Counted from the stretch's first letter, positions 16,895 through 30,984 are shown. The stretch: 43,371 bases of DNA from Salibacteraceae bacterium (GCA_040905305.1 JBBDRU010000104.1:1-43371), one strand, 5' to 3'. Notes: generated by a model not told the origin, from the sequence alone. A program made the numbers and translations.

Positions 16895-17230
16895 ATGGAA
16901 AAAGACTTTTTTGATCAGGTGTATCAAGTAGCACGTCTCATTCCTGAAGGGCGAGTCACCAATTATGGAGCCATCGGCAACTACTTAGGCGCAGCCCGTT
17001 CAGCGCGCATGGTGGGCTGGGCGATGAACAACGCGCATCATCAAACCCCGCCTGTGCCGGCTCATCGCGTGGTAAACAGCCAGGGGTTATTGACCGGAAA
17101 AATGCATTTTGAAACGCCTTTTCGTATGCAAGAATTACTGGAGGCCGAAGGCGTGCACATAGAAAACGACCAGGTAGCCGATTTCAAATCCGTGTTTTGG
17201 GATCCGATGGTGGAGTTGGGTATGGGTTAG
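16895..17230 (+). CDS. Alkyltransferase-like (ATL) protein / MGMT-family DNA-binding domain lacking the acceptor cysteine
   Basis: 111 aa matching the MGMT C-domain (RVTNYGAIG...ARMVGWAM...). The canonical PCHRV is PAHRVV here (ccg gct cat cgc gtg gta, around 17055-17072). Confidence 0.8.
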   Translation: MEKDFFDQVYQVARLIPEGRVTNYGAIGNYLGAARSARMVGWAMNNAHHQTPPVPAHRVVNSQGLLTGKMHFETPFRMQELLEAEGVHIENDQVADFKSVFWDPMVELGMG

Positions 17231-17270
17231 AAGATTACTGCGGGAACTTTACCATAAAATATAAAAAGCT

Positions 17271-17277
17271 TACTTTG
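17271..17277 (+). promoter_or_regulatory. Putative Bacteroidota -7 promoter box upstream of the AAA+ gene
   Basis: TACTTTG matches the TAnnTTTG consensus (with the preceding T/A context), 24 nt upstream of ATG 17301. Confidence 0.3.
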
Positions 17278-17300
17278 CAACAGCATTAGGTGATTGTATC

Positions 17301-18332
17301 ATGAGCCAATTCGACTACATTAAAGACATTGCAAAGTATGGTCTGGAAAACGACCAAGAAAGGCTATTGTCTGTTCTGAATGAACTTATTGAGTACTCCA
17401 AAAAGACTAAGAAAGTTAATTTTGCTATTCAGCTTCAGTCCATACTTAAAGAAGCTATCAGAGATCAACAAACAAGCGGACTCACAAAAGTCGGATCAGA
17501 TAAGTACTATCAAAGAGTTGAAGATCGAGAGGTAGGTGACTTAATCCTTGAAAAATTAACCTCCGATTATAGCTTTAAGAATTTAGTCTGTAATACTAAA
17601 ATCAAGACGCAATTGGACTATTTTATCAAGGAACACCAAACCGCAGACCTTTTAAGAAAATACGACCTACCAATATCCAATAAGGTTTTGTTGCATGGCC
17701 CTTCCGGTTGCGGAAAAACCCTCACCTCATACGTAATAGCTGGCGAATTAGAAAAGATGATGATTGTTGTCAATCTAGGGGCAATCGTTTCGTCTAAGCT
17801 CGGAGAAACAAGTAAGAACCTTGCAAAGGTATTTCGGAAGGCTTCATCCGAAGAATGTATCATTTTCATAGATGAGTTTGATTCATTAGGGAAGGTAAGA
17901 GACTACAATCAAGATCATGGAGAAATGAAAAGGGTGGTCAATACCATTCTTCAACTCTTTGATTATCTACCTCAAAATAGTATTGTTATTGCTGCTACCA
18001 ATCAAAAAGACATGGTAGATGAAGCATTGTTGAGAAGATTCGATCTTAGTATTGAATTCCCTTTGCCAGATGTTGAAAAAATCAAGGAGCTTGTTAAACT
18101 GACGTTGAAAAACGGTGAGTTTAAATTTGATAAACCCAGATCAATCAACAAAGTCATTGAAAGTGCAAAAGGTCTGTCATATTATAGTATTCAGAAAACA
18201 TTGGTAACCGCAATTAAAAGAAGCCTGTTTAACCAAGCCGAAAGCAAGGTTAAACGCATAAAGGCGACTATCAGTACCGATATTTGGAAAGACTTAATTA
18301 CTGAGGAAAAGGAAGCATTAAAGAAGAAGTAA
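17301..18332 (+). CDS. AAA+ ATPase, classical clade, with ~125-aa helical N-terminal domain (IetA-like candidate)
   Basis: Walker A GPSGCGKT (aa 133-140), Walker B IIFIDEFD (aa 187-194), sensor-1 IAATN and LLRRFD arginines. 343 aa, with no TM segment or signal peptide. Confidence 0.9.
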   Translation: MSQFDYIKDIAKYGLENDQERLLSVLNELIEYSKKTKKVNFAIQLQSILKEAIRDQQTSGLTKVGSDKYYQRVEDREVGDLILEKLTSDYSFKNLVCNTKIKTQLDYFIKEHQTADLLRKYDLPISNKVLLHGPSGCGKTLTSYVIAGELEKMMIVVNLGAIVSSKLGETSKNLAKVFRKASSEECIIFIDEFDSLGKVRDYNQDHGEMKRVVNTILQLFDYLPQNSIVIAATNQKDMVDEALLRRFDLSIEFPLPDVEKIKELVKLTLKNGEFKFDKPRSINKVIESAKGLSYYSIQKTLVTAIKRSLFNQAESKVKRIKATISTDIWKDLITEEKEALKKK

Positions 18333-18348
18333 ATTATTCTCCTTCAAA

Positions 18349-20781
18349 TTAAACATCCCCTTCTGCCTCTGCTTCCCCTTCAACATGAATGATATTCTCA
18401 ATTTCGTTCACAGCAAGCATTTCAGCATAGAGCTTACCTGTTTGTTTAGCTTCCGTTAGGTTTTCCTCAAGGGTAATAGCCATTGATAAGGGATGTGCCT
18501 TATTGTATTTTTCAAGCGACTGCGGCAATAATTGTGGATTAAGTAAGCAATGTATTACCAGTTTGAAGGTGGAACCTTCTTCTTCTAAATCCTTAGTATT
18601 GATTTGAAAATTTACTTTTTGTGTATTTGAAGCTGGTATTGGATTAGAGACCCCTCTGTTATTCTGTGACCAAGATTCTTTTAAGTGTGACTTAACTTCT
18701 TTTTCAGATTTGAGAATATCCTCAGCAGATTGATTTCTTACTATTCTAAAAGCCATTCTTAAGGGGCAATATCCTAATTGATTATTTTGTACTGGCTCAA
18801 AACTGAAACACAAGGTTGCAGATAATTTCAGTACGCCCTTCTTTCCTAAGTCTTCCTGTATTAAATAAGCCGGAAAGTTTAAAGGTATTATCTTCATTTC
18901 ATCCGGGTTGATCTCATCTTCAATAACAAAAGTTATGGCATTATCTGTTGAAGTGGTGCTTTTATCCGGGTTAACGACACCATAACCAGCAGTTTTATTT
19001 CTTAGCTTGACAACCGGATCGGCAAAAGGAATAGCATCCAGGGAGGCAGAATTTACTATCAGTGCCTTGATTGTCTGCACCCTTAATGTTGGATAGCTTT
19101 TCTGAATCTGGGCTGCAATGTTTGCAACTAAAGGAGTAGAAAAGCTGGTTCCGGCATGTCTGTAAAAACCGAAAGCAGGATTTGCAGATAATACTTCCAT
19201 CAAGGCATCATTATTTGTACCCACAAAGCCATTTCCTTGCTCGTAATCACCCCCGCCCTCAATTACATCCGGTTTGAACAAATGGGGATTGTTCTTTGTG
19301 AATCTTTTGTCTGGTTTTTTGTATTGTTCGAGGTCAATATGGCTTTTACGGGAGTATAATGTCGGAAATTCCCGACCATGAGAGATGCCTGCAAAAGTAC
19401 CATCTTGAAGATTGTCAGCCGCTGCACCAACGACAACATTGTTCATACTATCAGCAGGAGATGACAAGTTGGTTTCTTCTTCTTTAAAATAGTTGAGATC
19501 GTATCTGGTCTGGTTGATTGCGTTATTGTTGTTTGCTGTGCAAATGAAGATCAGACAGTCATTCTCATGAGCAAACTTGTCTAATTCGTAAGCGTAAGCT
19601 GAAAAATCTTCATTGGTCGCTTTGTGTGCCGAGTAACAGGTAGTAAGTACGAACAAACGCATCTCAGGATATTCAGCTTTGGCACGTTTCAGTAAATCCA
19701 ACACATCCAGCATGGATAAATGGCCACTATCCGCATCCAATATTTTCACAGAGAGCAGCCTTGCATCAGCCGGTATTTCTCCGATATAATTTACTGAATA
19801 GGGCTTTCTACCCAAGGCAGCCAGAGCAGCAATGGAAGTGCCGTGACCAAAACCGTCATTGGCGTTATCGACAAACGGACTACTTCCAGTGAGGTTAAAC
19901 CTATCATCATTTATCAATATAGGAGCTAATGGGGTTGTATTGCTTATTCCGGTATCTAATATCCCAATTGTAGGAAGATCCTCATCAGGGTTGCTGATTT
20001 CAAAACCGTAAGCTCTTTCAACCGTATTGAGTTCGGATGGGCGAACAACTGTTGACAGGGAAGAGGTTACACTTAGTAGAATATCAAAGTTCCTGGCTAT
20101 TTCTTCAATACTCTCCTGTGAGGCACCAAATACTTCAAGTACTCCAGTATCTTCAATTAACCGGTATTCGTACTCATTCTCTGTAAGGTATTGTTGCAAA
20201 CGATTGTAGATGGTAGAAACATCCTCTGAGCCAGCAGGAAACTCTATCAACTTGAAGTTCATCAGTTGTACCCGGTCCTGATAATCAAGAATGTCTTTTG
20301 TAGTTAGAAGTTTAAAGTCCCTGATGAATTTTACTTTTCCTCTGTACTCTGCCTGCTCGTTTTCACCGGATTCTTTCAGGATAAAATTTTGAATATCTTG
20401 CAAGAAAGTGGCAAACTTATCCTGATCCACTACCGCAAATAATACTTCCCGATTGAAATGAGAAAAATTAACACCTTCTAACCCAAACTCATTATAGTAG
20501 AACTGATAATAATCTTTGATATTAAATTGATCCTGAAACCTGATTTGTATGTAATCAATATGAGCAGGAATTTGCAGGGCTTCATTTCGTTCCTGTCTCC
20601 TGTTGGTCAAATCAGTATTTAGCCTAGCTAAGGATCCTCTGAACGTATCTACCATTGGCAGGTAATCCGGTTCTTCTTCCGCTCGATCTTCTTGACCTCC
20701 AAAACCATAATTGAAGTCCATTTTTATAGATTGTTCCTTCTGAGTTGAGGAGTTGAGCTTTATGTGCGGTTTCTTTGCCAT
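18349..20781 (-). CDS. S8 (subtilisin-family) serine peptidase, cytoplasmic, multi-domain (IetS-like candidate)
   Basis: Ordered triad motifs TIGILDTGIS (D276), GFGHGTSIA (H313) and HAGTSFSTPLVA (S546). 810 aa. No signal peptide or lipobox. The ~265-aa N-domain and ~200-aa C-domain are unassigned. An alternative start is M21 (20721). Confidence 0.9.
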   Translation of the reverse strand: MAKKPHIKLNSSTQKEQSIKMDFNYGFGGQEDRAEEEPDYLPMVDTFRGSLARLNTDLTNRRQERNEALQIPAHIDYIQIRFQDQFNIKDYYQFYYNEFGLEGVNFSHFNREVLFAVVDQDKFATFLQDIQNFILKESGENEQAEYRGKVKFIRDFKLLTTKDILDYQDRVQLMNFKLIEFPAGSEDVSTIYNRLQQYLTENEYEYRLIEDTGVLEVFGASQESIEEIARNFDILLSVTSSLSTVVRPSELNTVERAYGFEISNPDEDLPTIGILDTGISNTTPLAPILINDDRFNLTGSSPFVDNANDGFGHGTSIAALAALGRKPYSVNYIGEIPADARLLSVKILDADSGHLSMLDVLDLLKRAKAEYPEMRLFVLTTCYSAHKATNEDFSAYAYELDKFAHENDCLIFICTANNNNAINQTRYDLNYFKEEETNLSSPADSMNNVVVGAAADNLQDGTFAGISHGREFPTLYSRKSHIDLEQYKKPDKRFTKNNPHLFKPDVIEGGGDYEQGNGFVGTNNDALMEVLSANPAFGFYRHAGTSFSTPLVANIAAQIQKSYPTLRVQTIKALIVNSASLDAIPFADPVVKLRNKTAGYGVVNPDKSTTSTDNAITFVIEDEINPDEMKIIPLNFPAYLIQEDLGKKGVLKLSATLCFSFEPVQNNQLGYCPLRMAFRIVRNQSAEDILKSEKEVKSHLKESWSQNNRGVSNPIPASNTQKVNFQINTKDLEEEGSTFKLVIHCLLNPQLLPQSLEKYNKAHPLSMAITLEENLTEAKQTGKLYAEMLAVNEIENIIHVEGEAEAEGDV

Positions 20782-20795
20782 ATTGTAGTTGAACT

Positions 20796-21761
20796 TTAAC
20801 CCAATTCCATTTTTGCTATTTCATCCAAATCCACATTAAACACACACCCGTCTTTAAAACCACGGTTACCCAGTTTGCTGGTGGGGCGTTTTTTACAGTT
20901 GGCTTCAATGATTACCGAACCATTGCCAGGCTGCCAAGGGGCGAACCCAATTTCGGGCGTGGTGGAAAACCACAGCGAAATCAACGGTTTTTTCAAAGCT
21001 GCCGCGATGTGCATCAGCCCCGTGTCGTGAGAAATGACCTTCTCGGCTCGCTCAATAATGCTGGCAGATTGATTTAAACTGAATGCGCCACAAGCATTAA
21101 AAACTCGATTTCCACATACTTTCACTACTTCGTCTGCACGCTCACGGTCTTCAACACCCCCCAGTAAAATCATCGGTGATTTGATCTTTTCGCACAAGCG
21201 AATCATCTTATCTGTTGGTAGAATTTTTCCCTTCATTTTCCCTCCGATGGCATAAGCGATGTAACTGTCTCGAAACGGTTCGGGCAACATGGCAGGCATA
21301 ACAACGTCATCATCTGGGATGAAAAAATCCAGACCATTTCCATCATCCTCCACACCCAGTGGTTTCACGGCTTCAAAGCTGCGCTTTACTACATGGCCAA
21401 TTGGAAGTATTTCTCGCTTGACATTTACATAAATCCATTTGGCTACATTACGCTTATCTATAGTGAAGTTTAGTGATTTACAAGTATGCTTCACTTGCTT
21501 GGATCTCAGGTTGTTGTGCAGGTCAACTACATAATCATAATAACCGGGAACCAATTGGTCTTTCACTTCGCTCACGCGCTTGTCGATGGTGATAACCTTG
21601 TTGATATGAGGGTTTGCAGATAGCAACCCGGCATATACTTTTTTAGTGATAAAGTCTATTTGCACTTCCCCTTCAAGTTGTGATTTTAAAGCTCTTACAA
21701 CAGGCGTTGTGAGTACGATATCTCCAATGGAGCTGAAGCGGATGATGAGGATGCGGGTCAT
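20796..21761 (-). CDS. Glycosyltransferase family 9 (heptosyltransferase-like)
   Basis: MTRILIIRFSSIGDIVLTTPVVRALK is the typical GT9 N-terminus, and the C-terminal half has HDTGLMHIAAAL. The start is set at ATG 21761. Confidence 0.85.
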   Translation of the reverse strand: MTRILIIRFSSIGDIVLTTPVVRALKSQLEGEVQIDFITKKVYAGLLSANPHINKVITIDKRVSEVKDQLVPGYYDYVVDLHNNLRSKQVKHTCKSLNFTIDKRNVAKWIYVNVKREILPIGHVVKRSFEAVKPLGVEDDGNGLDFFIPDDDVVMPAMLPEPFRDSYIAYAIGGKMKGKILPTDKMIRLCEKIKSPMILLGGVEDRERADEVVKVCGNRVFNACGAFSLNQSASIIERAEKVISHDTGLMHIAAALKKPLISLWFSTTPEIGFAPWQPGNGSVIIEANCKKRPTSKLGNRGFKDGCVFNVDLDEIAKMELG

Positions 21762-21895
21762 AAAAACAGATCGCAAAGTTGCGTTTTTAGCGCGGATTTT
21801 AGCGCAAAGCGTTTAGATTCGAGCAGATCGGAAGAAACATTCCAACGGATTTTATCCGGTTACCCGCCTGAGAAAATCATTTCTCAAAAAAAGGC

Positions 21896-21926
21896 AAAAA
21901 AAAGAGGGCATCTTACGATGCCCTCT
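21896..21926 (-). terminator. Rho-independent terminator of the small lipoprotein gene
   Basis: Perfect 10-bp stem AGAGGGCATC-TTAC-GATGCCCTCT (21903-21926). It is followed on the minus strand by a T-run (plus-strand A-run 21896-21902). Confidence 0.65.
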
Positions 21927-21947
21927 TTCAATAGCTTTAAAGCTTGA

Positions 21948-22145
21948 TTAAGCTTCAGCCCAAGTACAAACATTGGTAGATGTACAAGCAGCCTCAGCAT
22001 CGTCAGCTTCGCTTTTAGAAAGACCATTGTATTCTGTAGTTGTAGAAATTCCAAATACTTCACAAGTACATGTGTAATCTTTCTTGCAAGAAGTACCTGC
22101 AAATACGAATGCTACAAGAGCAACTGGTAATAATAACTTTTTCAT
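21948..22145 (-). CDS. Small Cys-rich lipoprotein (65 aa)
   Basis: Signal peptide plus lipobox MKKLLLPVALVAFVFAGTSC. The mature ~45-aa peptide has four further cysteines (CTC...C...C). The gene has its own -7 box and terminator. Confidence 0.6.
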   Translation of the reverse strand: MKKLLLPVALVAFVFAGTSCKKDYTCTCEVFGISTTTEYNGLSKSEADDAEAACTSTNVCTWAEA

Positions 22146-22174
22146 TGTAATTAATTTTTGATTAGCAATTGGCG

Positions 22175-22182
22175 CAAATGTA
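22175..22182 (-). promoter_or_regulatory. Putative -7 promoter box for the small lipoprotein gene
   Basis: The minus strand reads TACATTTG (TAnnTTTG), about 30 nt upstream of ATG 22145. Confidence 0.35.
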
Positions 22183-22381
22183 ACCGTATTTCAATTACTA
22201 CAAAAATTTTTCTTAAAATGTGTTTATTGCAGCAAAATCAAGACACACAGGCGCAGGAAGGCTTTTTAGCATGTTTGAACTCCTCAAATTTGAATAGGCA
22301 CACGACCGATTTAATCGCTTTTTCAAACCACTCAGCGCATGCTCACCGCAAAAAAAGCAGAATATCGATAACTTTGACCGC

Positions 22382-23209
22382 ATGCTGATCGATAGTCATA
22401 CCCACATTTACCTGCCAGAATTTGATGAAGATTTTGACGAAATGATTCTCAGAGCCAGAAAGGAAAACGTTCAGGCATTTCTGCTTCCAAACATTGACGC
22501 CTTGTCCATTCAGGGTTTGCATCAAGTATGCGACCGCCTTCCAGACCATGCTTTCCCAATGATGGGATTGCATCCTTGTTCTGTCAAAGAGCAATACCTT
22601 GATGAATTGGAAGAAATAAAGCGGCATTTATTTCAGCCGGTGCGCAAATATTGGGCAGTAGGTGAAATCGGTATTGACCTGTATTGGGATAAATCTACGC
22701 TGAAAGCTCAAACCGAAGCACTAACACGACAAATTGAATGGGCAAAAACGCTTGACTTACCCGTTGTGTTACACATTCGAGATGCTTTTGACGAAACCTT
22801 TGAGGTTATTGATCGCCTCAACGATGAAAAACTACGTGGGGTTTTTCATTGTTTCACTGGAACTAGGCAACAAGCAGAACACATCATTGGCTATGGTGGA
22901 TTCAAACTGGGAATTGGCGGAGTTGTCACTTTTAAGAATGGTAAAATCGACCGTTTCATTCATGAAATCGACCTATCTCATATCATCCTTGAAACGGATG
23001 CGCCCTATCTCGCACCTGTCCCGCATAGAGGAAAAAGAAACGAGCCTGCCTATCTGGCACTGGTGGCTCAAAAACTTGCTGAGTGCTATGGTGTTTCGTT
23101 AGAGGAAGTTCAAAACGCAACCACCCAAAACTGTATTGACCTATTTCAACTAAACCTGCCTTCTGATGAGAATAATGATATTTCTAATTCTATGCATTTG
23201 GACGACTAG
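22382..23209 (+). CDS. tatD: TatD-family metal-dependent hydrolase/DNase
   Basis: MLIDSHTHIY start, with GEIGIDLYW, VLHIRDA, GVFHCFTG and ILETDAPYL motifs. A ~20-aa C-terminal tail overlaps the next ORF. Confidence 0.88.
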   Translation: MLIDSHTHIYLPEFDEDFDEMILRARKENVQAFLLPNIDALSIQGLHQVCDRLPDHAFPMMGLHPCSVKEQYLDELEEIKRHLFQPVRKYWAVGEIGIDLYWDKSTLKAQTEALTRQIEWAKTLDLPVVLHIRDAFDETFEVIDRLNDEKLRGVFHCFTGTRQQAEHIIGYGGFKLGIGGVVTFKNGKIDRFIHEIDLSHIILETDAPYLAPVPHRGKRNEPAYLALVAQKLAECYGVSLEEVQNATTQNCIDLFQLNLPSDENNDISNSMHLDD

Positions 23210-27546: not shown

Positions 27547-27631
27547 GGAGAGGTGGCAGAGTGGCTGAATGCGCACGCTTGGAAAGCGTGTTTACGGAAA
27601 CGTAACGAGGGTTCGAATCCCTCTCTCTCCG
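27547..27631 (+). tRNA. tRNA-Ser (anticodon GGA)
   Basis: Manual cloverleaf. Acceptor GGAGAGG/TCTCTCC (one G-U pair). Anticodon stem CACGC/GCGTG with loop TTGGAAA (GGA at 27581-27583). Long variable arm. T-arm GAGGG-TTCGAAT-CCCTC. Discriminator G. No encoded CCA. Confidence 0.92.
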
Positions 27632-29327: not shown

Positions 29328-29695
29328 TTAATAACTCCACTTCCTGACAACAATGACATCATTCAAATATCCTTTTTCTCCGGTATAATCTCCAGCACTG
29401 CTGTAAAGATATTCCTCTGGTTTATACGCTAACCCTTCCTGAACCGGGTTTTGATGAATGTAATTTATTTTTCGTCAATTACCTTGTTACTCCAAAGCTC
29501 AATCGGTTTATTATCGTGTCTCCAGAATTGATGTTCCGTTGTGTTCGATGACTGCGAAGCCACTTTTTTAAACTGTGCAATCATCCATTCTTTCCTGCTT
29601 TCCCGAGGGTTTTCGCTAATGGCCTCGATAAGTTTTCTACTCGTGAATCGTTTAATATCACCCAACACACTGTCAGGCTTTTCTTCTCCTGGCAC
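29328..29695 (-). pseudogene. Y1 (IS200/IS605-like, RayT-like) transposase remnant: 5-prime truncated and frameshifted
   Basis: Track ORF 29465-29695 gives ...DIKRFTSRKLIEAISENPRESRKEWMIAQFKK...HQFWRHDNKPIELWSNKVIDEK*. The protein continues in another frame as NYIHQNPVQEGLAYKPEEYLYSSAGDYTGEKGYLNDVIVVRKWSY* (stop at 29328-29330). The junction GAAAAATAAATTAC is consistent with a 1-nt deletion. The N-terminal ~60-70 aa, including the HUH region, are missing (in-frame stop at 29696-29698). Confidence 0.7.
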
Positions 29696-29731
29696 CTAAC
29701 CATAAGGGGTCAATCACTTACCTTTGTTTGT

Positions 29732-30121
29732 ATGGTATTGGAAAAGCATAGGGCACATAACACAATAATAAAGGGTGTTGCAATCATTTCATTGATGCTA
29801 ATTTCTATACCGCCAATCTTCAACGTTGGAATAGCCATTAATTATCAGGTTGATCAAAAAGAGTATTTGCAGCGCTGTGAAAACAAGGACAAACCCTTGA
29901 TGCATTGCAATGGGAAATGTGTGCTTGCTAAAAAATTAATGGTTTCCAGAAATAATGAAGCTCCCGACCAACCAAAGATCATAACGCTTCAGTTGGCCTT
30001 TTTTGAAGAACCCGTTGAAACGGTTTTTTTTAAATCCCGCCAGGAATTGACTTTTTTTAATGATTCGGGCAAGCTCAATGACTTTGCACTTCCTATAGAT
30101 CATCCGCCTCAATTTTCATGA
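29732..30121 (+). CDS. Small membrane-anchored protein with Cys motif C-x9-C-NGKC (function unknown)
   Basis: 129 aa. One N-terminal TM segment (IIKGVAIISLMLISIPPIF), then QRCENKDKPLMHCNGKCVLAKKL. A TACCTTTG -7-like box at 29719-29726 almost abuts the ATG, so the start is uncertain (alternative M22 at 29795). Confidence 0.45.
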   Translation: MVLEKHRAHNTIIKGVAIISLMLISIPPIFNVGIAINYQVDQKEYLQRCENKDKPLMHCNGKCVLAKKLMVSRNNEAPDQPKIITLQLAFFEEPVETVFFKSRQELTFFNDSGKLNDFALPIDHPPQFS

Positions 30122-30171
30122 TTTTTTTCGATTCACTCTTTTAAAGACACATTAATCAAACATTAATTATC

Positions 30172-30984
30172 ATGAAAAATAAACTCATATTATGTGTGGT
30201 AGGCGTTGCACTGCTATCATTTATCGGCCCGGGGTGTAAAAATGAAATTCCTGAACCCCCCAATATCAAAGAGATGATCACCTCAGATTTTGTCTTCATT
30301 ACTTCAACCCAAGTAGCAGAACACACCCTGTCGCTTTACGCAGATGAACAACTGAAAGTAGGATACAATCAACTCTATATGATCATGGAAGATCAAGATG
30401 AAAAATTGATCACTGATTTTGAAATAAATAGTATCCGTCCAATGATGGACATGGGTAATATGGAGCACAGCACTCCTATTGAACCTGTTTCTAAAGACAG
30501 CTACAGAGCTCAGGTAGGCATCGTTTTCATTATGCCCTCCACGGCCGGTGACTGGCGCATTGACCTGGGTCTATCTGTTGGAAATCAGAACTATGAAGAA
30601 ACACTGACGTTTGATGTTGAAGCATCTGATCCCACCCGGTTGTTATCATTTGTTGACAGCATTTCAAGCATAAGTTATTTCATTGCACTCGTTGAACCGA
30701 GATTGCCGGAAGTTGGTGAAAACGACTTCATTTTAGGAATCTATCAACGCGAAAGCATGATGAGCTTTCCTCAGGCAGATGATCTTTCTGTGGAAATAGA
30801 GCCGTGGATGCCATCGATGTCTCACGGGTCAACGAACAACGTGAACCCGACTCAGAAAGAAGATGGATTATATCACGGGGTTGTAAATTATTCCATGGCC
30901 GGAGATTGGGAAGTAAGGCTTGTTATTTTAAATAACTCAGGGGATACATTGGCGCAAGACCTTTCTTTTGAGTTTCTGTTATAG
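30172..30984 (+). CDS. Lipoprotein with two tandem YtkA/FixH-like domains carrying Met/His motifs
   Basis: Lipobox SFIGPGC. Two internally similar halves contain IRPMMDMGNMEHSTPIEP...AGDWRIDL and IEPWMPSMSHGSTNNVNP...GLYHGVVNYSMAGDWEVRL. The family name is assigned from memory of YtkA-like domains. Confidence 0.5.
   Translation: MKNKLILCVVGVALLSFIGPGCKNEIPEPPNIKEMITSDFVFITSTQVAEHTLSLYADEQLKVGYNQLYMIMEDQDEKLITDFEINSIRPMMDMGNMEHSTPIEPVSKDSYRAQVGIVFIMPSTAGDWRIDLGLSVGNQNYEETLTFDVEASDPTRLLSFVDSISSISYFIALVEPRLPEVGENDFILGIYQRESMMSFPQADDLSVEIEPWMPSMSHGSTNNVNPTQKEDGLYHGVVNYSMAGDWEVRLVILNNSGDTLAQDLSFEFLL

What the first reader, a model, noticed from the sequence alone, without database searches (positions are those of the whole stretch)
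17231..20795. AT-rich two-gene islet: AAA+ ATPase plus cytoplasmic S8 subtilase wedged between core genes (IetAS-like candidate defence module, mechanism unknown)
Seen in sequence. ORF 17301-18332(+) encodes a 343-aa protein with a ~125-aa helical N-domain and a classical AAA module: Walker A GPSGCGKT (aa 133-140), Walker B IIFIDEFD (aa 187-194), sensor-1 IAATN and RRFD arginines. ORF 18349-20781(-) encodes an 810-aa protein with an ordered subtilase triad (D276 in GILDTGI, H313 in GHGTS, S546 in GTSFSTP) and no signal peptide or lipobox. The pair exactly fills the gap between two convergent housekeeping-type genes, the ATL gene ending at 17230 and the GT9 gene ending at 20796. It looks more AT-rich than its surroundings. 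My hand counts of single 60-nt samples gave roughly 32-42 percent G+C inside versus roughly 45-48 percent in flanking genes; these are approximate and must be recomputed. No integrase, transposase or att repeat is attached. Established knowledge (from memory): an ATPase + S8 protease pair named ietAS was among the experimentally validated anti-phage systems of Gao et al. 2020, and its mechanism has not been resolved. Inference: this is a horizontally acquired member or divergent relative of that class, with the ATPase acting as sensor/unfoldase and the protease as effector or activator.
Basis: partly seen in the sequence, partly recalled or inferred. Interest (0 to 1): 0.8.

Follow-up and report, generated by a model that had tools for sequence, protein, structure and literature searches.

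The report
Tail-to-tail IetAS defence gene pair
A 3.5-kb inserted gene pair (an AAA+ ATPase and a cytoplasmic subtilisin-like protease) belongs to the known IetAS toxin–antitoxin/anti-phage family, but to a distinct, so far unlabelled branch whose genes face each other and whose sequence features suggest how the ATPase might restrain the protease.

Summary
ORFs 17301-18332(+) and 18349-20781(-) carry the stated AAA+ motifs and S8 triad. The pair fills the gap between convergent ATL and GT9 genes. Its G+C is 38.5% against 43.1% elsewhere.

PADLOC IetA (E=5e-74) and IetS (E=2e-37) profiles match. Three syntenic Flavobacteriales genomes have an empty site. IetA proteins 92-96% identical sit in other contexts, including a restriction-modification island.

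New here: the pair belongs to a monophyletic IetAS sub-clade.
- The genes are tail-to-tail in 71/72 metagenomic and 4 viral loci. All 16 canonical systems checked are co-directional ietA→ietS.
- IetA pore-loop 1 is Lys-Leu-Gly, against an aromatic or Met residue in 11/11 canonical IetA.
- Every IetS ends in a disordered acidic tail.
- The IetS model looks like an unprocessed pro-subtilase: two pro-domain-like units, the S8 core and a β-domain.

Inferred mechanism: the protease is the toxin and the ATP-dependent IetA is the antitoxin, possibly gripping the acidic tail. Phage infection releases the protease and aborts infection.

It is a new variant of a known kind, of moderate interest. Function and mechanism are untested.

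The parts
17271..17277 (+). TACTTTG, a promoter-like element resembling the Bacteroidota -7 box, 24 nt upstream of the ietA ATG. It marks roughly the left edge of the DNA shared with other copies of the module.
   Evidence: The element is conserved as TAnTTTG 15-30 nt upstream of ietA in four different genomic contexts. The true TAnnTTTG motif lies directly upstream of the neighbouring host genes ATL, TatD and the lipoprotein gene. The motif count in the window is not above shuffles, so the conservation carries the evidence, not the match itself.
17301..18332 (+). ietA: a 343-aa classical AAA+ ATPase, the putative antitoxin.
   Evidence: PADLOC IetA PDLC02196 E=4.7e-74 over nearly the full length. 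Pfam AAA 1e-32. The AF2 model's best PDB matches are p97 D2, with archaeal Vps4 (4d82) also among the listed matches. Catalytic residues are invariant.
17301..17471 (+). IetA N-terminal three-helix domain (aa 1-57), followed by a disordered linker (aa 52-66).
   Evidence: AF2 places helices at 3-16, 19-36 and 40-57, with moderate confidence. The domain is highly conserved, at 71% mean identity over 51 pairs. No Pfam family matches it.
17796..17804 (+). IetA pore-loop 1, K166-L167-G168. Lys replaces the aromatic or Met 'paddle' residue of canonical IetA.
   Evidence: K in 50 of 52 and R in 2 of 52 convergent-clade IetA. The same position is F, Y or M in 11 of 11 co-directional IetA.
17889..17933 (+). 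IetA pore-loop 2 (aa 197-211, GKVRDYNQDHGEMKR), rich in basic residues and nearly invariant. Tyr202 is specific to this clade.
   Evidence: The AF2 model has low confidence here, consistent with a flexible loop.
18333..18348 (.). 16-nt spacer between the two convergent stop codons. It holds no terminator.
   Evidence: No terminator-like site lies in the spacer. The junction has no significant RNA hairpin (z +0.20 and -1.31). Stop-to-stop gaps are 6-115 nt in 71 related loci.
18349..20781 (-). ietS: an 810-aa cytoplasmic S8 subtilase, the putative toxin/effector.
   Evidence: PADLOC IetS PDLC02197 E=1.8e-37. Pfam Peptidase_S8 6.9e-27. BLASTP to the P. aeruginosa plasmid IetS gives one unrearranged alignment over aa 95-713 (22% identity, E=6e-26). 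AF2 pTM 0.85.
20062..20553 (-). Two tandem β-α-β-β-α-β units of IetS (aa 77-158 and 173-240) with the topology of a subtilase pro-domain.
   Evidence: AF2 secondary structure. The best PDB matches are unprocessed pro-forms: ProN-Tk-SP 3afg (E=3e-21, 639 aligned columns), pro-subtilisin E 3whi, and PCSK9. No Pfam hit.
18982..19995 (-). S8 catalytic core of IetS (aa 263-600). Codons: D276 at 19954-19956, H313 at 19843-19845, S546 at 19144-19146. The probable oxyanion Asn is N417/N418. Low-confidence insertions lie at aa 418-439, 457-501 and 512-525.
18457..18981 (-). C-terminal β-rich domain of IetS (aa 601-775).
   Evidence: AF2 strands. The long alignments to Tk-SP, KP-43, furin and PCSK9, which carry C-terminal β-domains, are consistent with this.
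18352..18396 (-). Disordered acidic C-terminal tail of IetS (aa 796-810, NIIHVEGEAEAEGDV; net charge -5).
   Evidence: pLDDT is 29 for aa 801-810. Tails are acidic in 48 of 48 convergent-clade IetS (-3 to -7). Of 115 homologues, 87% reach -4 or lower, against 4.7% of internal 15-aa windows. The tail persists in full-length representatives down to about 30% identity.
20782..20795 (-). 14-nt junction between the GT9 stop and the ietS ATG on the same strand. There is no room for a separate ietS promoter.
   Evidence: Similarity to other copies of the module begins at the ietS ATG in the window and in L164. No -7-type motif occurs on the minus strand between 20782 and 21000.

Best explanation
The interval 17231-20795 is a horizontally acquired two-gene module of the IetAS family, a toxin-antitoxin and abortive-infection anti-phage system. 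It belongs to a distinct 'tail-to-tail' sub-clade.

Shown here:
- Both proteins are homologous to IetA and IetS.
- Both have intact catalytic sites.
- The two genes are co-inherited.
- The module is accessory and mobile.
- It is often found next to restriction-modification and other defence genes.

Taken from published work on relatives: IetS, a cytoplasmic subtilase, is the toxin whose protease activity is needed for defence. IetA is the ATP-dependent antitoxin. Specific phage proteins trigger toxicity.

Inferred here:
1. IetS is built like an unprocessed pro-subtilase, with two pro-domain-like units, the S8 core and a β-domain.
2. The IetA hexamer restrains IetS by engaging its disordered, alternating acidic C-terminal tail through a Lys-bearing pore-loop 1 and a basic pore-loop 2. 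This would resemble the way katanin and spastin grip the acidic tubulin tail.
3. When a phage product blocks IetA, or IetA or ATP supply fails, IetS is freed, cleaves cellular and/or phage proteins, and infection aborts.
4. In this window ietA has its own promoter-like element, whereas ietS is probably transcribed by read-through from GT9. That would keep toxin expression low.
For: Family:
- PADLOC IetA 248 bits, in the range of bona fide plasmid IetA (240-349 bits). IetS 127 bits.
- NCBIfam IteA and IteS are the top hits.
- The BLASTP alignment to the Pseudomonas IetS runs unrearranged over aa 95-713.

Pairing:
- IetS lies tail-to-tail next to IetA in 71 of 72 metagenomic loci and in 4 viral contigs.
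- IetA and IetS pairwise distances correlate (Mantel r=0.78, 0 of 2000 permutations reach it).
- All catalytic residues are conserved.

Accessory and mobile:
- An empty site in three syntenic genomes.
- Low G+C.
- IetA 92-96% identical in other contexts: an R-M/helicase island in L164, and a site between DUF5916 and RecG in L167.

Defence neighbourhood: type I, II, IIG and III R-M genes, DRT reverse transcriptases and MADS components occur among the neighbours of related pairs.

Literature:
- IetS is the toxin and IetA the antitoxin; an ietA mutant could not be constructed; protease activity is needed; the mechanism is unknown (PMC13069673).
- The system acts by abortive infection and is triggered by SPbeta yosG (10.1101/2022.08.27.505566).
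- The Mycoplasma AAA/S8 toxin-antitoxin pair has been validated (PMC8562856).

Mechanistic inference:
- Pro-form-like fold of IetS.
- K-L-G pore loop against [F/Y/M] in 11 of 11 canonical IetA.
- Uniformly acidic, disordered tail.
- Basic, invariant pore-loop 2.
- The precedent of katanin and spastin gripping acidic tubulin tails is cited in PMC7749064.

Expression.
Against: - No experiment exists for this clade. Defence, toxicity and the IetA-IetS contact are all inferred.
- NCBIfam equivalog cut-offs are missed by a wide margin (208 against 510 bits; 107 against 900 bits), so function cannot simply be transferred from the tested systems.
- The link between the Lys pore loop and the acidic tail holds within one monophyletic clade, so it counts as a single evolutionary event.
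- One canonical system (B. plantarii) combines an acidic tail with an aromatic pore loop.
- If the pro-domain-like units inhibit the protease as they do in secreted subtilases, IetS alone should be inactive. That sits awkwardly with IetS being toxic on its own in relatives.
- The motif evidence for promoters is weak, since counts are not above shuffles.
- The IetA N-domain model has only moderate confidence.
Confidence: 0.7

Rival explanations
1. The module is a selfish addiction (toxin-antitoxin) cassette with no anti-phage role. It persists because losing it kills the cell, which is how ietAS was first described on plasmid pTiC58.
For: - ietAS was first identified as a plasmid-stabilisation toxin-antitoxin system (PMC13069673; PMC8562856).
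- The module moves between unrelated sites with no benefit demonstrated.
- Copies occur on mobilisable elements and on viral contigs.
Against: - Related IetAS systems protect against phages and act by abortive infection.
- Related convergent pairs sit beside R-M, DRT and other defence genes.
- The two roles are not mutually exclusive.
Confidence: 0.17
2. The pair is a housekeeping regulated-proteolysis machine: an AAA+ unfoldase feeds substrates to a partner protease for protein quality control, and no toxin is involved.
For: - IetA is closest to the p97/Cdc48, PAN and FtsH AAA modules.
- Both enzymes keep intact active sites.
Against: - The pair is absent from the three closest syntenic genomes, has foreign composition, and lands in unrelated loci.
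- IetS evolves about 1.8 times faster than IetA and partners appear to swap, which is atypical of a housekeeping complex.
- Pore-loop 1 lacks the aromatic residue typical of threading unfoldases.
- The homologous pairs behave as toxin and antitoxin.
Confidence: 0.05
3. The tail-to-tail gene order is itself regulatory. Convergent transcription across a 16-nt spacer would give overlapping antisense 3' ends or polymerase collisions that couple toxin and antitoxin levels, for example releasing ietS when ietA transcription falls during phage takeover. This would add to the protein-level model, not replace it.
For: - The orientation is kept in 71 of 72 plus 4 loci, across 45-96% IetA identity, with stop-to-stop gaps of only 6-115 nt.
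- All 16 canonical systems checked are co-directional.
- No terminator or significant hairpin lies between the genes.
Against: - Conservation of order within a monophyletic two-gene module can be simple inheritance.
- There are no transcript data.
- The spacer sequence is not conserved beyond close relatives.
- The apparent partner swaps (L087, L103) show the junction tolerates recombination.
Confidence: 0.15
4. The adjacency is fortuitous, and the two genes are unrelated cargo.
For: None beyond the absence of a shared operon.
Against: - The genes are adjacent in 71 of 72 independent loci and their divergence is correlated.
- Both match the two components of one known system.
Confidence: 0.01

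Closest known systems
IetAS (ietA/ietS of Agrobacterium pTiC58; 'ietAS' of Gao et al. 2020; PADLOC IetA/IetS; NCBIfam IteA/IteS)
   Same: - Both are a two-gene AAA+ ATPase plus roughly 800-aa cytoplasmic S8 peptidase.
- Profile matches to both components.
- One unrearranged BLASTP alignment to canonical IetS over aa 95-713.
- A shared pore-loop 2 signature, and a conserved (L/I)-Y motif followed by a C-terminal tail that is often charged.
- Both are accessory, mobile and found near R-M genes (RM III co-localisation in E. coli is reported in 10.1101/2022.08.21.504612).
   Different: - The genes are convergent instead of forming an ietA→ietS operon (71/72 plus 4 loci against 16/16).
- IetA forms a separate clade, at most 33% identical to canonical IetA.
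- No PADLOC IetS model scores above 127 bits here, whereas canonical proteins score 140-1320 bits.
- NCBIfam cut-offs are not met.
- Pore-loop 1 has Lys instead of F, Y or M, and Tyr202 appears in pore-loop 2.
- The IetS tail is uniformly acidic, whereas canonical tails are often Arg/Lys-rich or near-neutral.
[quoted passage not shown]
   Same: A chromosomal AAA plus S8 pair. The protease is toxic and the ATPase neutralises it. The pair shows signs of horizontal transfer.
   Different: It is an operon with the antitoxin upstream. Its sequence relationship to this clade was not tested here.
ietHAS (IetAS variant with an SNF2 helicase; Nucleic Acids Res 2026, PMC13069673)
   Same: It is a variant architecture of the same family, which shows the family is modular.
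   Different: It has a third helicase gene. No helicase is attached here. The 1218-aa helicase next to the L164 copy lies on the other strand and is absent from the window.
Meiotic-clade AAA ATPases (katanin, spastin, Vps4): a 'works like' comparison only
   Same: - A single AAA module preceded by a small helical N-domain.
- An arginine pair (RRFD, aa 245-248) in the second region of homology, which from memory resembles the motif of this clade.
- An archaeal Vps4 structure is among the fold matches and CdvC is the second-best NCBIfam hit.
- Proposed gripping of an acidic, disordered C-terminal tail by basic pore loops, as katanin and spastin do with tubulin tails (references listed in PMC7749064).
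   Different: Membership is not claimed. The best sequence and fold matches are p97 D2. The meiotic-clade enzymes keep an aromatic pore-loop 1 residue (from memory). The IetA N-domain matches no MIT profile.
Pro-subtilases with C-terminal β-domains (ProN-Tk-SP 3afg, pro-subtilisin E 3whi, PCSK9, kexin/furin)
   Same: The domain order is pro-domain-like α/β unit(s), then S8 core, then β-domain. These are the best structural matches.
   Different: - Those enzymes are secreted, whereas IetS has no signal peptide.
- IetS has two pro-domain-like units plus a long N-terminal helix, large insertions in the core, and an acidic tail.
- Sequence similarity is confined to the catalytic motifs.

Membership tests
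IetAS (PADLOC / Gao et al. 2020 definition) | An AAA+ ATPase matching IetA profiles | tested here: met
   PDLC02196 E=4.7e-74 over aa 4-331 of 343, and three further IetA models at E≤6e-37. The score equals that of plasmid IetA from Agrobacterium and Klebsiella.
IetAS (PADLOC / Gao et al. 2020 definition) | An S8 peptidase matching IetS profiles, with an intact Asp-His-Ser triad | tested here: met
   Seven IetS models match at E between 1.8e-37 and 5e-10. The triad and N417 are invariant. The match is weaker than for canonical proteins and covers mainly aa 174-730.
IetAS (PADLOC / Gao et al. 2020 definition) | The two genes are adjacent and co-inherited | tested here: met
   71 of 72 loci and 4 viral contigs. 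Mantel r=0.78.
IetAS as described experimentally (pTiC58, E. coli, B. cereus, Mycoplasma) | An operon with ietA upstream of ietS on the same strand | tested here: not met
   The genes are convergent, with a 16-nt spacer. All 16 canonical systems examined are co-directional. Profile-based tools probably do not require a particular orientation (from memory), so this makes the pair a variant without excluding it from the family.
NCBIfam IteA_antiphage / IteS_antiphage equivalogs | A score above the curated cut-off | tested here: not met
   IteA 208.5 bits against a cut-off of 510. IteS 106.9 bits against 900. The source names seen for homologues are generic ('AAA family ATPase', 'ATP-binding protein', 'S8 family peptidase').
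IetAS | The protease is toxic and the ATPase neutralises it (toxin-antitoxin behaviour) | not testable with these tools
   Known only for relatives.
IetAS | Protection against phage that depends on protease activity | not testable with these tools
   Known only for relatives. The indirect support here is the defence-island neighbourhood.
Accessory defence islet | Presence/absence polymorphism at a conserved site, and foreign composition | tested here: met
   An empty site in L001-L003, with about 20 nt between the GT9 and ATL stops. G+C z = -5.95.
Meiotic-clade AAA (Vps4/katanin/spastin) | An MIT-type N-domain and an aromatic pore-loop 1 | tested here: not met
   No MIT or other Pfam match for aa 1-124. 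Pore-loop 1 is K-L-G. The resemblance is functional analogy only.

The most novel reading that the evidence does not exclude
The tail-to-tail clade may expose the general, still unknown logic of IetAS. In this reading the AAA+ antitoxin holds a zymogen-like subtilase toxin by its charged, disordered C-terminal tail. Pore-loop chemistry and tail charge would have co-evolved: Lys with acidic tails here, and an aromatic residue with tails that are often basic in canonical systems. Convergent transcription would add a second, RNA-level coupling of toxin to antitoxin. Solitary prophage-borne IetA copies (L171, L172) would then be antitoxin mimics that disarm the system.
Probability: 0.2. Interest if true: 0.7.

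Novelty: new variant of a known kind. Interest (0 to 1): 0.42.

Why it matters
IetAS has been known as a toxin-antitoxin system since 2009 and as a validated anti-phage system since 2020, yet a 2026 paper still calls its mechanism unknown. No structure of either protein family is in the PDB copy searched.

This locus adds three things:
- It is a clean natural insertion with a matching empty site, which shows that a bare two-gene IetAS module can move without a recombinase.
- It defines a named-nowhere sub-clade of about 100 clusters at 50% identity. The named members seen are Bacteroidota, and it also occurs in gut and marine metagenomes. The source names seen for its proteins are generic.
- Comparing this sub-clade with canonical systems gives concrete mutational targets for the antitoxin-toxin interface: IetA K166 and Y202, and the IetS tail at 796-810.

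If the tail-grip idea holds, the family's mechanism becomes directly testable.

Tried and rejected
- Target-site duplications or terminal inverted repeats at the junctions: only chance-level short repeats were found.
- A bidirectional terminator or hairpin across the two stop codons: not significant (z +0.20 and -1.31). Terminator-like sites in the region do not exceed shuffles (4 against 4.8).
- Pfam annotation of the IetS N- and C-terminal domains and the IetA N-domain, even at E≤10: nothing credible.
- A sequence search of the PDB for an IetS or IetA structure: only generic subtilisins (E≥2e-4) and p97.
- Shared DUF5916 neighbours in the window and in L167/L088 as a clue to a common insertion site: the proteins are only 30% identical, so they are paralogues and the shared neighbour is a coincidence.
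- Sequenced phage genomes as carriers: only 3 weak partial S8 hits. IMG/VR contigs do carry the pair.
- Rfam and tRNA scans: a single tRNA-Ser at 27547, unrelated to the islet.
- Enrichment of -7 promoter motifs: the counts are below shuffle expectation, so single matches carry little weight.
- Gao et al. 2020 and Yamamoto et al. 2009 could not be read: the ids I tried were not held. Their content is cited only through later papers.
- The PADLOC scan of 122 neighbouring ORFs reports families, not the number of members hit. It therefore supports a defence neighbourhood only qualitatively.

Full report
**1. Observation**

The two ORFs are as described. IetA runs 17301-18332(+) and is 343 aa. IetS runs 18349-20781(-) and is 810 aa. 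The Walker A, Walker B, sensor-1 and RRFD motifs, and the D276/H313/S546 triad, are at the stated residues.

The left neighbour is an ATL-like PF01035 protein ending at 17230. The right neighbour is a GT9 PF01075 glycosyltransferase whose stop codon lies at 20796.

Recomputed G+C is 38.5% for 17231-20795, against 43.1% for the rest of the window. All 655 same-size windows outside the islet are higher (minimum 41.1%, z = -5.95). GC3 is 0.36-0.375, against 0.39-0.53 in the neighbours.

No junction repeats rise above chance. None of the ten neighbouring ORFs scanned against Pfam matches a recombinase family. The genes are convergent with 16 nt between their stops, and ietS begins 14 nt after the GT9 stop on the same strand.

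**2. Identity**

IetA matches four PADLOC IetA models. The best is PDLC02196 at E=4.7e-74, covering nearly the full length. IetS matches seven IetS models, the best at E=1.8e-37. NCBIfam's top hits are IteA_antiphage and IteS_antiphage, but both fall far below the equivalog cut-offs (208 against 510 bits; 107 against 900 bits).

Bona fide plasmid IetA proteins score 240-349 bits on the same model, so the window's IetA (248 bits) is an ordinary member by that measure. Canonical IetS proteins score 140-1320 bits on PDLC02198, while the window's IetS reaches only 127 bits on any model. BLASTP against the P. aeruginosa plasmid IetS still gives one unrearranged alignment from residue 95 to 713 (22% identity, E=6e-26).

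No solved structure exists for either family.

**3. Accessory and mobile**

A scan of species-representative genomes with GT9 found three uncultured Flavobacteriales MAGs (L001-L003) with the same gene order: porin, TatD, GT9, ATL, DUF5916, TrmB. In these genomes the GT9 and ATL stops lie about 20 nt apart. None of the 80 loci recovered contains IetA or IetS.

IetA proteins 92-96% identical to the window's occur elsewhere. In L164 the pair sits between a 1218-aa UvrD-like helicase and an HTH/N6-methyltransferase/Eco57I restriction-modification cluster. In L167 and L088 it sits between a paralogous DUF5916 gene and recG, again between convergent host genes.

IetA is far more conserved across Bacteroidota than the host GT9. 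It is 75-76% identical to Chitinophaga and Flavitalea proteins, while GT9 is about 50% identical at that distance.

Neighbours of related pairs include type I, II, IIG and III R-M genes, DRT reverse transcriptases and MADS components. Copies also lie on IMG/VR viral contigs and beside a relaxase.

**4. A distinct tail-to-tail sub-clade**

In 71 of the 72 metagenomic loci that hold both genes, IetS lies on the opposite strand immediately downstream of IetA, with stop-to-stop gaps of 6-115 nt. This holds across IetA identities of 50-95%. Four viral contigs show the same layout.

All 16 canonical systems examined are co-directional, ietA followed by ietS. They come from plasmids of Pseudomonas, Agrobacterium, Klebsiella, Nitrosospira, Vibrio, Rhizobium, Bradyrhizobium, Sinorhizobium, Burkholderia, Leptolyngbya, Synechocystis and the Bacteroidota member Haliscomenobacter, plus one viral contig. 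The characterised Mycoplasma pair is also an operon.

A neighbour-joining tree of 53 IetA sequences separates all convergent from all co-directional members by a single split. Identity is at least 45% within the convergent group and at most 33% between the groups.

The IetS sub-family comprises 117 representatives at E≤1e-30 among 1.84 billion 50%-identity clusters.

Within the clade, IetA and IetS distances correlate (Mantel r=0.78, 0 of 2000 permutations reach it), and IetS diverges about 1.8 times faster. Two loci, L087 and L103, combine a close IetA with a very divergent IetS, which suggests partner exchange.

**5. Anatomy**

*IetA.* The model (pLDDT 76) shows three N-terminal helices, a disordered linker, and a classical AAA module. 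Its best PDB matches are p97 D2, and an archaeal Vps4 structure (4d82) is also among the listed matches.

Pore-loop 1 is K166-L167-G168: K in 50 of 52 and R in 2 of 52 convergent members. All 11 canonical IetA proteins examined have F, Y or M at the first position. Pore-loop 2 (GKVRDYNQDHGEMKR) is rich in basic residues and almost invariant. It shares a family-wide signature with canonical IetA, but Tyr202 is specific to the convergent clade.

*IetS.* The model (pLDDT 79.5, pTM 0.85) has these parts:
- a long helix (aa 41-64);
- two β-α-β-β-α-β units (aa 77-158 and 173-240);
- the S8 core, with three low-confidence insertions;
- a β-rich C-terminal domain (aa 601-775);
- a disordered tail.

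Its best PDB matches are unprocessed pro-forms or subtilases with C-terminal β-domains: ProN-Tk-SP, pro-subtilisin E, PCSK9, KP-43 and furin.

The last 15 residues carry a net charge of -5 in the window. The charge is -3 to -7 in all 48 distinct convergent-clade proteins, often in an alternating acidic/hydrophobic pattern. Among 115 homologues, 87% of tails reach -4 or lower, against 4.7% of internal 15-residue windows.

The acidic tail persists in full-length representatives down to about 30% identity. Canonical IetS tails vary: five are basic, five lie between 0 and -3, and one is strongly acidic. Among the distant, core-only matches, several carry Arg/Lys-rich tails after the same (L/I)-Y motif.

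**6. Expression signals**

A TAnTTTG element is conserved 15-30 nt upstream of ietA in four different contexts, and lies at 17271-17277 in the window. The true TAnnTTTG motif lies directly upstream of the neighbouring host genes.

For ietS, similarity to other copies starts at the ATG in the window and in L164. L167 and L088 keep a 23-nt leader carrying a similar motif. No such motif lies on the minus strand between 20782 and 21000.

Across related loci, the gene upstream of ietS is co-directional in 30 of 39 cases, sometimes only 4-14 nt away. The gene upstream of ietA is co-directional in 17 of 38.

My inference is that ietA has its own promoter here and ietS is read through from GT9. No terminator or significant hairpin separates the two genes.

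**7. Mechanism**

*Established for relatives.* IetS is the toxin and IetA the antitoxin. Protease activity is required for defence. An ietA mutant could not be constructed. The anti-phage mechanism is unknown (PMC13069673). The system acts by abortive infection and can be triggered by one phage protein.

*Inferred here.* The toxin is a zymogen-like cytoplasmic subtilase. The antitoxin hexamer may hold it by its acidic, disordered C-terminal tail through Lys and other basic pore loops, as katanin and spastin hold tubulin tails (references listed in PMC7749064). Loss of that grip during infection would free the protease.

*Caveats.*
- The pairing of pore loop and tail is one clade-level event, not several independent ones.
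- One canonical system pairs an acidic tail with an aromatic loop.
- The role of the pro-domain-like units is unclear.

*My estimates.*
- A member of the IetAS family in the broad sense: about 0.9.
- Toxin-antitoxin behaviour: about 0.75.
- Anti-phage function: about 0.6.
- The tail-grip mechanism: about 0.25.
- A regulatory role for convergent transcription: about 0.15.

**8. Verdict**

The locus is a horizontally acquired IetAS-type module. Profile-based defence finders should detect it, so it is not a new kind of system.

It does represent a coherent variant that, as far as the searchable literature shows, has not been described. That variant combines a convergent gene order, a Lys pore loop, an acidic toxin tail and a divergent IetS. 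Contrasting it with canonical systems yields specific, testable ideas about a mechanism that remains open. Interest is moderate.

Noticed in passing
L171:8001-8999 and L172:8001-8987 (IMG/VR contigs IMGVR_UViG_3300014667_000016 and IMGVR_UViG_3300031088_000745): A solitary IetA homologue (54% identical to the window's) has no IetS within 8 kb. It sits in a prophage-like region beside a DUF4145 protein and a Rha/ANT antirepressor. It could be a phage-encoded antitoxin mimic that counters host IetS.
   Followed up: partly
L143:6947-11301 (Ga0208014_1000097): An IetA (61% identical) is followed by an IS3-family transposase where IetS should be, then by DUF6730 and a MobA/VirD2 relaxase. This looks like a module disrupted by an insertion sequence on a mobilisable element.
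   Followed up: partly
L087 and L103 (metagenomic loci): IetA is 72-76% identical to the window's, but IetS is only 25-33% identical. Other loci with the same IetA identity have IetS at about 55%. This suggests exchange of the protease partner across the tail-to-tail junction.
   Followed up: partly
L102:6923-9595(-): A Type III restriction enzyme (PADLOC REase_III, E=7e-159) ends 5 nt upstream of the ietS start on the same strand. E. coli data in a preprint report co-localisation of RM III and ietAS.
   Followed up: no
window 21900-21929 (-): A strong terminator-like hairpin (13-bp stem followed by a T-run) lies between the 65-aa lipoprotein-like ORF (21948-22145, -) and GT9. GT9 and ietS would therefore need a promoter in 21777-21900, but no -7 motif was found there.
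   Followed up: no
window 29501-30500 and 21501-23000: Two other modest G+C dips occur in 1-kb windows (0.384 and about 0.397). Neither persists at the 3.5-kb scale.
   Followed up: no
L186:1700-4255 (Planctomyces sp. SH-PL62 plasmid pPL62-2): An IetS-like S8 peptidase sits next to parAB with no annotated IetA beside it. The plasmid gene table is incomplete, so this may be either a solitary IetS or an unlisted partner.
   Followed up: no
window 17509-17524 and 17948-17963: A perfect 16-nt inverted repeat (ATCAAAGAGTTGAAGA / TCTTCAACTCTTTGAT) lies inside ietA, with its arms 423 nt apart. Its significance is unknown and it may be chance.
   Followed up: no
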